Shown piece after piece: positions 31,546-58,103 of a stretch of DNA of 64,000 bases. Numbering within the stretch: position 1 is the first letter of the stretch; each line of letters starts with the position of its first letter. Both the position numbers and the translations under genes were made by a program. The notes under the pieces were generated by a model. The model searched no databases, had not been told where the DNA came from, and saw nothing but the letters and a program-made list of their open reading frames with translations. Source of the stretch: Camelus ferus (lineage: Eukaryota); contig NC_045696.1 of the NCBI RefSeq assembly GCF_009834535.1, forward strand, positions 35,962,001-36,026,000. The letters are read 5' to 3'.

Positions 31546-31580
<35 letters not shown>
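31546..31580 (+). repeat. Pure poly(A) run, 35 nt
   Basis: Direct count. Confidence 0.95.
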
Positions 31581-31582
<2 letters not shown>

Positions 31583-31994
31583 ATAAAGGGCCATAACTTC
31601 TTTTTAAAATAAAACAGAAACAAAACTTGAATTTCTAGTCTCCACACACAAAATATTTCACTAGACCAGCGTACCTAAAGGTCCACTTTTAATTATCTCA
31701 TGTGCTGGAGGGGAAACATTGAAACTGTCTAAAAGGTTGCTGAATGGTTTGATGCAAAGTAACTAAAGTATTTTTAAAACATGGCATGTCTATGGAAGTC
31801 AATTCCAAAATAATTTTAAAATCTTATAACCTTTTTAAAAGCATGGCATGCCTTATGAATGCAATGAACAACCAATATGTCAACAATTAATAATATATGA
31901 AAAGGTTTATTCTTTTTTTTAATTTTTTTAAAGAATTGATGGGTATTTTATTGTGGGTCAAGAGCACCGATTCATCTTCATTTTGTTACAACTG

Positions 31995-33155: not shown

Positions 33156-33203
33156 AAATTACTCCACCGCACCCTAAGATGCTCCTAACCAGCCTTCTCT
33201 CCT

Positions 33204-34457
<1,254 letters not shown>

Positions 34458-34509
34458 CGCCACAGCAGTAGCTCGGACCCCGGAGCACAGAGCTTCCTCG
34501 TCCCTCCGC

Positions 34510-34834
34510 GGCCACCCGGGTCTAACGGTGCCCCGGTCTAACGGCCACCCCGTCTAACGGCCACTCCGGTCTAACAGCCGGCCTGGTCTAACAGCCGCCC
34601 CGTCTAACGGTGCCCTGGTCTAAAGGCCGCCCTGGTCTAAAGGCCGCCCCGGTCTAACGGCCGCCCCGTCTAACGGCCGCCCGGGTCTAACAGCAGCCCT
34701 GGTCTAAAGGCCGCCCCGGTCAAACGGCCGCCCCCGTCTAATGGTGCCCCGGTCTAACGGCCGCCCCGTCTAACGGGTGCCCCGGTCTAACGGCCACCCT
34801 GGTCTAAAGGCCGCCCCGGTCTAACGGCCGCCCC
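34510..34834. repeat. GC-rich minisatellite, 19 units of 16-17 bp, consensus GGTCTAACGGCCGCCCC
   Basis: Counted 19 GTCTAA/GTCAAA cores starting at 34520 through 34819, head-to-tail with no spacers. Confidence 0.97.
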
Positions 34835-35231
34835 AGCAGCTGCACCACGGGCTGCACTTCCCGGTTTATTCTTTCTTTCAGTAAATAAAATTAAATTTCC
34901 ATTTAGAGCACTGCATAACCAAAAGAAAGTTTAAACAATGGTTACTTTTGGCCAAAATATAATGATTACTGAATTAAAATATAAATGGTTATCATTTGAT
35001 GCTACCTAAGAAACTATGATATTTCCGAGGAAAATTTCCAGTTGAACAGGTGGTCTCTTGCTTGCCTTTGTTTGCACAAAGGAAATGCCTCATTTTTACC
35101 AGTGGAATAGAAAAATCTAAGAAAAATAAAACAGAAGCAGCAGTAGAAGGTAGAGAGAGCCTTCAGACCTCCATGAAGGCCATGTGGAAGGAGGACTGGA
35201 CAGGCGGAGGAGATAATAAAGTTTCTGTTTT

Positions 35232-35692
35232 TGTAATGTGGCCTTGCCCCAGTTTTTGAGGTTTTGGCTAAAAGTCAGACAGTGCCCCTTCTTGAGCAGC
35301 TGATTAAGTCTGTACCACATGCTGGGCTTTCACACGCTGGACTATACACACTATGCACCTTCCCTAATAGACTCAGGGTCAGGAACTAGACAACTGAGGA
35401 CAGCCCCCAGACTCCAGCATCCACAAAAATATTCAAATTAGCCACTCCACAGGGATCCTGGGACACCTAGCTAACCTCACGTTACTTCCATACGTAACCC
35501 TCCCCTTACAGCTCCAGCTGGCTGTTATCCTGTCCTTGAAGGCCAACCTCCCATGTGGCCCTGCCTGACTGTTACCTCCATATTAGAACTGTAAGTAAAA
35601 GAGAGTTCTGCCTTTGATCTATCCAAGTGTCAGTGTGTTGTGTCCCACCATCAAAAGACTCTTTAAGTCATATAAAACAAGGAATCTTAGAT
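35232..35692 (+). mobile_element. ERV/ERVL solo LTR upstream of the C2orf81-like insert
   Basis: Starts tgtaatgtgg; ctgtaagtaaaagagagttctgcctttgatctat..tcagtgtgttgtgtccc U5-like end. Confidence 0.5.
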
Positions 35693-57925: not shown

Positions 57926-58025
57926 NNNNNNNNNNNNNNNNNNNNNNNNNNNNNNNNNNNNNNNNNNNNNNNNNNNNNNNNNNNNNNNNNNNNNNNNNNN
58001 NNNNNNNNNNNNNNNNNNNNNNNNN
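57926..58025. other. Assembly gap (100 N)
   Basis: Run of N next to a (GGAA)n repeat. Confidence 1.
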
Positions 58026-58103
58026 GAAGAGGAAGGAAGGAAGGAAGAAGAGGAAGGAAGGAAGGAAGGAAGGAAGGAAGGAAGGAAGGAAGGAAGGAAG
58101 GAA
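58026..58103 (+). repeat. (GGAA)n microsatellite, cut by the gap
   Basis: Direct reading. Confidence 0.97.

What the first reader, a model, noticed from the sequence alone, without database searches (positions are those of the whole stretch)
34510..34834. Minisatellite of MYB-family sites about 55 bp upstream of the C2orf81-like start codon
Seen: 19 units of 16-17 bp; 10 carry TAACGG, 3 TAACAG, 4 TAAAGG, and one each AAACGG and TAATGG. The minus-strand consensus reads GGCCGTTAGAC, and I saw no upstream ATG in the array. Established: MYB proteins bind YAACKG, and A-MYB (MYBL1) drives spermatocyte transcription including pachytene piRNA loci. Inference: tandem amplification of one site built a homotypic, CpG-rich germline promoter for the relocated copy, and copy number could tune expression.
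Basis: partly seen in the sequence, partly recalled or inferred. Interest (0 to 1): 0.8.

Follow-up and report, generated by a model that had tools for sequence, protein, structure and literature searches.

The report
Expanded promoter-motif repeat in camel retrocopy
A 19-unit repeat of a transcription-factor motif sits inside the front end of a reverse-transcribed camel gene copy; it likely grew from a 2-4-unit stretch inherited from the parent genes, and its mutation pattern suggests a likely methylated, drifting repeat rather than a purpose-built sperm-cell promoter.

Summary
It lies inside an L1-type retrocopy of camelid C2orf81 (target-site duplication, poly-A), 28 bp from the copy's 5' end, so it derives from the parent's 5' leader. 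Camelid paralogs carry the same leader with about 2-4 units, not one. The unit joins a GC box to CCGTTA, a hexamer bound by MYB and OVOL proteins alike. Unit variation falls on CpG sites (23 of 104 letters against 4 of 195 elsewhere), and the MYB core is no better kept than the rest. That points to germline methylation and drift, against an unmethylated, selected A-MYB promoter. A promoter role stays open: this is the window's only CpG island region, and RNA runs share its words (unlaid). Binding, start site, methylation and length polymorphism were not measured. An earlier scan note on this same window described the half-spliced retrocopy; I found no note on this array on other DNA. Verdict: new member of a known kind, modest interest.

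The parts
34863..34878 (.). 5'-side target-site duplication of the retrocopy (12 bp exact, 15 of 16 when extended)
   Evidence: family D13; the exact 12-mer occurs only twice in the window
34835..34862 (-). First 28 bp of the retrocopy: leader colinear with the paralog leader; 5 of 7 differences read as CpG loss in this copy; begins at a decayed ETS-like GGAAGT (motif name recalled)
   Evidence: paralog codons inferred from protein P0074
34510..34834 (-). Minisatellite: 19 units of 16-17 bp, consensus GC box plus CCGTTA; 10 units with CCGTTA, 13 with C[CT]GTTA, 10 GGGCGG
34458..34509 (-). 52-bp leader between array and ATG, colinear with the paralog leader
33204..34457 (-). 417-codon C2orf81-like ORF (DUF4639), open only when the short intron is read through; splicing it gives a stop after 118 residues
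   Evidence: the same 118-residue product is annotated in dromedary (P0080)
34123..34208 (-). Retained 86-bp GT-AG intron after codon 83
33751..34950 (.). Span of 200-bp windows that meet CpG-island composition (GC above 0.5, observed/expected above 0.6); with 33211-33520 the only such span in the window
31947..31952 (-). AATAAA polyadenylation signal of the retrocopy
31916..31929 (-). Poly-A remnant (its boundary with the target-site duplication is ambiguous)
31904..31919 (.). 3'-side target-site duplication

Best explanation
The array is a 19-unit GC-rich minisatellite inside the 5' leader of a camel C2orf81 retrocopy, likely expanded after insertion from a 2-4-unit GC-box/CCGTTA repeat inherited from the parent transcript, and likely methylated in the germline and drifting rather than selected as an A-MYB promoter. 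Shown: its position inside the target-site duplication, the colinear leader with few units in paralogs, CpG-directed variation, and no extra conservation of the core. Inferred: expansion by slippage or unequal exchange after insertion, germline methylation, and neutrality. The transcription-factor sites are there because the seed came from a parental transcription-start region. Any transcription that the copy has may well begin in or near this inherited stretch, but nothing here shows that 19 units were needed or favoured.
For: Target-site duplication, poly-A and AATAAA bound the copy, and the array starts 28 bp inside its 5' end. The dromedary paralog model P0074/P0060 reads through a leader that is colinear on both sides of the array with two units. 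In 4 of 4 DNA runs, paralog contigs jump from 34486 to 34625 or 34628; loose ends at 34682 are shown for X1 and X5, which leaves room for about 3-4 units. Units 1-18 against their consensus: 23 substitutions in 104 CpG-column letters, 4 in 195 others; 5 of 6 possible CpG-transition types are seen against 8 of 45 other types (Fisher P 0.003). The core hexamer has 9 changes in 108 letters, the rest 18 in 191 (P 0.84), and 9 of 19 units have lost CCGTTA. In the 28-bp leader 5 of 7 differences from the paralog read as CpG loss here. Against the dromedary orthologue, 6 of 13 amino-acid changes fit CpG transitions (expected share 0.12-0.17, P 0.003-0.012), two of them at codons 13 and 25. Non-CpG divergence among units is about 2%, while the copy differs from paralog contigs by 11-15%; this fits expansion after insertion. 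The spliced message stops after 118 codons here, and dromedary has the same product annotated.
Against: Methylation is read from mutations, not measured. Variants shared by several units are not independent events, and the four 16-bp alignments can be drawn otherwise. The array keeps 36 CpGs (observed/expected 0.96), and keeps more of them than the 28-bp leader beside it (1 of about 7 inferred), which could mean partial protection. The 417-codon frame is open in both this copy and dromedary XP_031304154.1. No other CpG island lies in the 64 kb. Paralog unit numbers come from a protein model and from cut tables (32 of 152 pieces shown), so a long array in an unseen source copy is not excluded. 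The excess of amino-acid change over the 266-residue paralog (13 of 417 against 2 of 266) is not significant (P 0.058).
Confidence: 0.55

Rival explanations
1. The expanded array works as the copy's own promoter: CCGTTA sites bound by A-MYB in spermatocytes (or by MYB or OVOL proteins elsewhere) and GC boxes bound by Sp/KLF factors start transcription within or just after the array, and the expansion strengthened an inherited weak promoter.
For: 10 CCGTTA and 10 GGGCGG end 52 bp before the ATG. It is the only CpG island region in an AT-rich window, and 72 of the 90 open frames listed gave no Pfam match above its cut-off, so no neighbouring gene was seen. Retrocopies can carry parental core promoters in their leader (PMC2386082, abstract). 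A-MYB and OVOL2 share CCGTTA (PMC11789646, passages). The parent protein is a motile-cilium central-pair protein (PMC12979858, passages). The first eight units are identical to the window in 3 of 4 DNA runs.
Against: CpG-directed decay in the array, in the leader and at codons 13 and 25; that CpG methylation blocks MYB binding is recalled, and my search found no paper for it. No extra conservation of the core. Only about 3% of expressed retrocopies with mapped starts inherited a parental promoter (PMC4772013, passages). A-MYB mostly binds chromatin that is already open (PMC10060231, passages). The one direct regulator I found for the mouse parent is RFX2 (PMC4498915, Table S1 row; the gene-name equivalence is recalled), and two X-box half-site patterns found no match in the leader or array.
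Confidence: 0.28
2. The long array was already present in the source gene's message and was copied whole; the source has since contracted or was not seen.
For: The array lies within the retrocopy. The camelid family has many divergent copies and the nearest source is not identified. A third paralog joint (34488 to 34612, runs X5 and X8) is of unknown unit number.
Against: The paralog leaders seen have about 2-4 units. Non-CpG divergence among units (about 2%) is well below the copy-to-paralog distance of 11-15%.
Confidence: 0.1
3. The array is transcribed from a start further upstream and acts as a long, structured 5' UTR that damps translation.
For: It is leader-derived, 70% GC and free of upstream ATG. 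An LTR-like element lies about 360 bp upstream (recognised by eye).
Against: The 408-nt leader folds no better than its shuffles (z 0.66; 73 of 100 shuffles fold as well). The LTR-like element appears to point away from the copy. No upstream start is known.
Confidence: 0.07

Closest known systems
Retrocopies that carry a parental core promoter in their 5' leader (Okamura and Nakai 2008, PMC2386082; Carelli et al. 2016, PMC4772013)
   Same: An L1-type copy whose 5' end holds sequence from the parent's transcription-start region, CpG-rich and with transcription-factor motifs.
   Different: Here the inherited motif is tandemly expanded about five- to tenfold and shows CpG decay; a start site within it has not been shown.
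Promoter and 5' UTR minisatellites that carry transcription-factor sites, such as the TYMS 28-bp, MAOA and INS repeats (recalled, from no call)
   Same: A GC-rich tandem unit near a start codon, each unit holding a factor motif, so copy number could change the number of sites.
   Different: Length polymorphism and an effect on expression are not shown here; the host is a decayed, half-spliced retrocopy and not an established gene.
A-MYB and OVOL2 CCGTTA clusters at piRNA-pathway promoters and piRNA clusters (Alizada et al. 2025, PMC11789646; Nair et al. 2007, PMC1865076)
   Same: The same core hexamer, in many copies, next to a gene whose parent is a motile-cilium protein.
   Different: Those sites are shown by ChIP or binding assays and are conserved across species. 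Here the sites are repeat units, 9 of 19 are altered, and the core is no more conserved than its flanks.

Membership tests
Minisatellite / VNTR | Head-to-tail units of about 10-60 bp | tested here: met
   Period 17, 19.6 copies, 80% matches; 19 units listed
Minisatellite / VNTR | Unit number varies between individuals | tested here: inconclusive
   Contigs match the window through 34655-34659 in 3 of 4 runs and end at 34559 in the fourth; no shown piece spans the array, which holds a 38-bp exact internal repeat
Dispersed satellite | Same unit in arrays elsewhere, away from genes | tested here: inconclusive
   No match to the 12-base core (up to 2 mismatches) elsewhere in the window; the other contigs shown with units continue into C2orf81-type leader; no whole genome is held
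L1-mediated retrocopy | Target-site duplication | tested here: met
   12 bp exact, 15 of 16 extended, at 34863-34878 and 31904-31919
L1-mediated retrocopy | Poly-A tail after a polyadenylation signal | tested here: met
   AATAAA at 31947-31952 and an A-run ending at the duplication
L1-mediated retrocopy | Loss of parental introns | tested here: inconclusive
   The intron after codon 6, inferred from gene models P0063, P0040 and P0048 that read into it, is absent; the 86-bp intron after codon 83 is kept: half-spliced
Parent-inherited retrocopy promoter | Upstream region homologous to the parent's 5' region | tested here: met
   Leader colinear with P0074 on both sides of the array and with paralog contigs
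Parent-inherited retrocopy promoter | Transcription start inside the inherited stretch | not testable with these tools
A-MYB-driven germline promoter | YAACKG / CCGTTA motifs near the start | tested here: met
   10 of 19 units
A-MYB-driven germline promoter | Motif kept better than its flanks | tested here: not met
   9 of 108 against 18 of 191 changes, P 0.84
A-MYB-driven germline promoter | A-MYB occupancy and dependence in spermatocytes | not testable with these tools
   No camel chromatin data; the motif is shared with OVOL1/OVOL2 and c-MYB
CpG-island promoter | GC above 50%, CpG observed/expected above 0.6, over 200 bp | tested here: met
   33751-34950; array 0.96 and 70% GC
CpG-island promoter | Unmethylated in the germline | tested here: inconclusive
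   Indirect only: the mutation spectrum points to methylation; no bisulfite data

The most novel reading that the evidence does not exclude
A retrocopy carried a small GC-box/MYB-OVOL module in its 5' leader and amplified it to 19 units in place, turning a fragment of the parent's start region into a self-contained germ-cell promoter in an AT-rich desert, with unit number and unit variants (CCGTTA against the TAAAGG type) setting its strength; the CpG decay would then come from methylation in only one germline or one past period.
Probability: 0.22. Interest if true: 0.6.

Novelty: new member of a known kind. Interest (0 to 1): 0.3.

Why it matters
How retrocopies gain promoters is only partly settled: the two papers read give 'more than half' of 29 functional pairs and about 3% of expressed copies for inheritance from the parent. 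A case where the inherited motif was then tandemly multiplied would add a simple, testable route, and the natural series of 2, 3-4 and 19 units in one gene family is a ready reporter experiment. If the best reading holds, the lesson is cautionary: a dense cluster of germline factor motifs before a start codon can be a by-product of repeat expansion in methylated DNA. Searches on C2orf81, 1700003E16Rik, tandem repeat with A-MYB and VNTR, camel with retrocopy, and retrogene with tandem repeat and promoter (listings seen) showed no paper on this locus or on such an array; the library lacks most subscription papers.

Tried and rejected
Whole-genome search: no genome is held for this window, so dispersal of the unit could be tested only in the window and in laid contigs. 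Parent leader in non-camelid mammals: a degenerate exon-1 pattern in metagenome contigs gave 14 loci, none like the leader (best BLASTN E 0.52), taken as chance matches; a protein search with the paralog's 66-residue extension returned only P0060. A two-unit pattern in viral contigs: 0 matches. An alpaca or llama orthologue of the retrocopy: none among 67 and 6 hits; this is no evidence of absence, as it may be unannotated. Zero contig depth over most of 34854-35250 is not read as a deletion, because the tool leaves records out. The RNA rows with shares 0.35 and 0.28 are not used. RNA structure: no excess folding. Higher-order repeat: no clear period above one unit (mean identity 0.79-0.85 at offsets 1-11). 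Coding role of the array: all three minus-strand frames are stopped by the unit's own TAG. ZFP57-type TGCCGC (motif recalled): none in the array, one in the ORF, so an imprinted-region reading has no sequence support. The sigma-70 scan has no bearing on a mammal. A-MYB target lists: 2 of 3 supplementary files of PMC10060231 were searchable and held neither gene name; the third file, and bioRxiv supplements, could not be seen and may bear on whether the parent is an A-MYB target. PMC13261958 (passages) had no bearing. The look-alike note e1-4558619 (2 of 70 words, bacterial) is unrelated.

Full report
Observation. The array is present as described. Tandem Repeats Finder reports 34509-34834, period 17, 19.6 copies. 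It splits into 19 units of 16-17 bp with hexamers TAACGG 10, TAAAGG 4, TAACAG 3, AAACGG 1 and TAATGG 1. It ends 52 bp before the ATG at 34457, with no upstream ATG on the minus strand. Ten YAACKG matches exceed all 5000 shuffles of the array (mean 0.41), which only says that one unit is repeated; the window as a whole has 75 matches against 83.8 expected. On the gene's strand the unit is a GC box followed by CCGTTA: GGGCGG occurs 10 times in the array and 3 times in the rest of the window.

The gene. The 417-codon minus-strand ORF matches Pfam DUF4639. It is 99% identical to a Camelus bactrianus C2orf81 homolog, identical over its first 83 residues to a Camelus ferus model, and has a 417-residue dromedary orthologue with 13 differences. 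The window is therefore from a two-humped camel (inference). In other mammals C2orf81 is a motile-cilium protein: tagged mouse protein sits with the central pair (PMC12979858, passages), and the human protein is confined to cilia of fallopian-tube epithelium (bioRxiv 10.64898/2026.03.14.711768, passages).

The array is inside a retrocopy. A 12-bp exact direct repeat (15 of 16 when extended) lies at 34863-34878 and 31904-31919; the 12-mer occurs only at these two places in the window. Inside the lower copy are an A-run and an AATAAA. The intron after codon 6, inferred from gene models that read into it (P0063, P0040, P0048), is gone, while an 86-bp intron after codon 83 is kept. The array begins 28 bp inside the 5' end. 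It is therefore derived from the parent's message leader and not from the landing site. Splicing the kept intron gives a stop after 118 residues, and dromedary has the same product annotated (P0080), so the frame-breaking loss predates the split of the camel species.

The parent had more than one unit. Camelids carry several divergent C2orf81 copies. One dromedary model (P0074, also P0060) has a 60-residue extension that reads through the leader. It is colinear with this copy on both sides of the array and has two units in its place, the second apparently degenerate (DNA inferred from protein). Laying four DNA runs at 80% likeness showed, in 4 of 4 runs, paralog contigs that jump from 34486 to 34625 or 34628. 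Loose ends at 34682 are shown for X1 and X5 and resemble the further upstream part of P0074. That leaves room for about 3-4 units. The tables were cut (40 of 143 letter rows, 32 of 152 pieces, 24 of 80 loose ends shown), so a long array in an unseen copy is not excluded. Whether non-camelid mammals have the unit could not be settled.

The mutation pattern. Against the majority unit, units 1-18 (unit 19 left out as the array's end) show 27 substitutions, 16 of them CpG transitions. By column, 23 of 104 letters differ at the three CpGs and 4 of 195 elsewhere. Because duplication spreads variants, I also counted types: 5 of 6 possible CpG transitions occur against 8 of 45 other changes (P 0.003). 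In the 28-bp leader, 5 of 7 differences from P0074 read as CpG loss in this copy and none as loss in the paralog. In codons 1-83 against the 266-residue paralog the count is 4 lost and 0 kept among 32 differences, and in 38 of the 40 letter rows shown (two allele rows dropped) it is 6 lost and 2 kept; these two are weak. Between this copy and its dromedary orthologue, 6 of 13 amino-acid changes fit CpG transitions (P 0.003-0.012 under two transition weights), in both lineages and as close as codons 13 and 25. By established knowledge such a spectrum marks methylation in the germline. The MYB core is not spared: 9 changes in 108 letters against 18 in 191 (P 0.84), and its CpG is intact in 10 of 18 units, as is the next CpG. 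Non-CpG divergence of about 2% among units, against 11-15% between this copy and paralog contigs, suggests that most of the expansion came after insertion.

What speaks for function. The array still has 36 CpGs (observed/expected 0.96), more than the leader beside it keeps, which could reflect youth or partial protection. The copy holds the only CpG-island-like DNA in 64 kb, and 72 of 90 open frames scanned (those over the retrocopy and the N-gap region left out) gave one weak Pfam hit below its cut-off. The 417-codon frame is open here and in dromedary, though the Bactrian reference protein stops at 401. Four RNA runs hold 0.80-0.84 of the words of 33200-35300, of which 0.79 of the length is retrocopy; two are labelled reproductive system. 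The first eight units are identical to the window in 3 of 4 DNA runs, and no shown contig spans the array, so length variation is unknown.

Which factor. CCGTTA is the high-affinity c-Myb site and equally the Ovol1 site, and the two compete for it (PMC1865076, passages). OVOL2 and A-MYB share the core, and about 36% of mouse OVOL2 sites are also bound by A-MYB in testis (PMC11789646, passages). Thirteen units match C[CT]GTTA. Most A-MYB sites are open before A-MYB peaks (PMC10060231, passages). The mouse gene 1700003E16Rik, which I recall to be C2orf81, is listed as RFX2-bound with no expression change entered (PMC4498915, Table S1 row). So even if the array is active, A-MYB is one candidate among MYB, OVOL and GC-box factors. 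That CpG methylation blocks MYB binding is recalled; one search found no paper showing it.

Mechanism and odds. Most likely (0.55): a capped, half-spliced message of a camelid C2orf81 copy was inserted by L1 machinery (shown by the duplication and tail). Its leader held 2-4 GC-box/CCGTTA units (shown in paralogs, inferred for the source). These were multiplied in place by slippage or unequal exchange (inferred), while the island was methylated in the germline and decayed at CpG without regard to the MYB core (spectrum shown, methylation inferred). Rivals: a working inherited-and-amplified promoter (0.28), a long array copied from the source (0.10), and a translational 5' UTR element (0.07; folding z 0.66).

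Comparison and verdict. It works like, and on sequence qualifies as, parent-derived leader in a retrocopy. Okamura and Nakai found such inheritance in more than half of 29 functional pairs (PMC2386082, abstract), and Carelli et al. in about 3% of expressed copies (PMC4772013, passages). It is a minisatellite by structure; it is not shown to be a VNTR, and it fails the one A-MYB-promoter feature that could be tested beyond the motif itself. I found no paper on this locus (listings). New member of a known kind; interest 0.3, or 0.6 if the promoter reading (probability about 0.22 in its full form) is shown.

Noticed in passing
P0051, P0061, P0063, P0067, P0070, P0071, P0081 against window 34209-34457: Camelids appear to have an expanded, fast-diverging C2orf81 family: over the N-terminal block the camelid copies are 53-64% identical to eight other mammals, which are 84-98% identical among themselves. 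No camelid protein of the usual 600 residues appeared among 67 hits; this may be an annotation gap.
   Followed up: partly
P0061, P0067 and P0084: Two dromedary models join C2orf81 pieces to a segment that matches, by eye, the rhotekin-like part of the whale model P0084 (name recalled). This hints at DNA-level duplications of the C2orf81 neighbourhood in camelids. P0060 joins a C2orf81 copy to a retinol-dehydrogenase-like gene.
   Followed up: no
window 34855-34866: The copy begins with one more G than the paralog's inferred CCGGAAGT. This is either a point change or an untemplated G of the kind reported for capped messages (recalled); if the latter, the parent's start lay at this ETS-like motif, 28 bp before the repeat.
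   Followed up: partly
window 33204-34457: The long frame needs the 86-bp intron to be read through. The Bactrian reference protein ends at residue 401 while this copy and dromedary reach 417. Already noted by the scan as e1-8044255.
   Followed up: partly
window 33723-33764: A 21-bp direct repeat (86% identical) sits where paralog contigs leave the window at 33744, the edge of an internal loss in this copy.
   Followed up: no
window 35232-35679: An LTR-like element on the plus strand (TG start, CA end, poly-A-signal-like motif), recognised by eye and not tested against any library; it appears to point away from the retrocopy.
   Followed up: no
window 31546-31580 and 57926-58103: A 35-base A run about 320 bp beyond the retrocopy's 3' end, and a 100-base N gap beside an AGGA repeat.
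   Followed up: no
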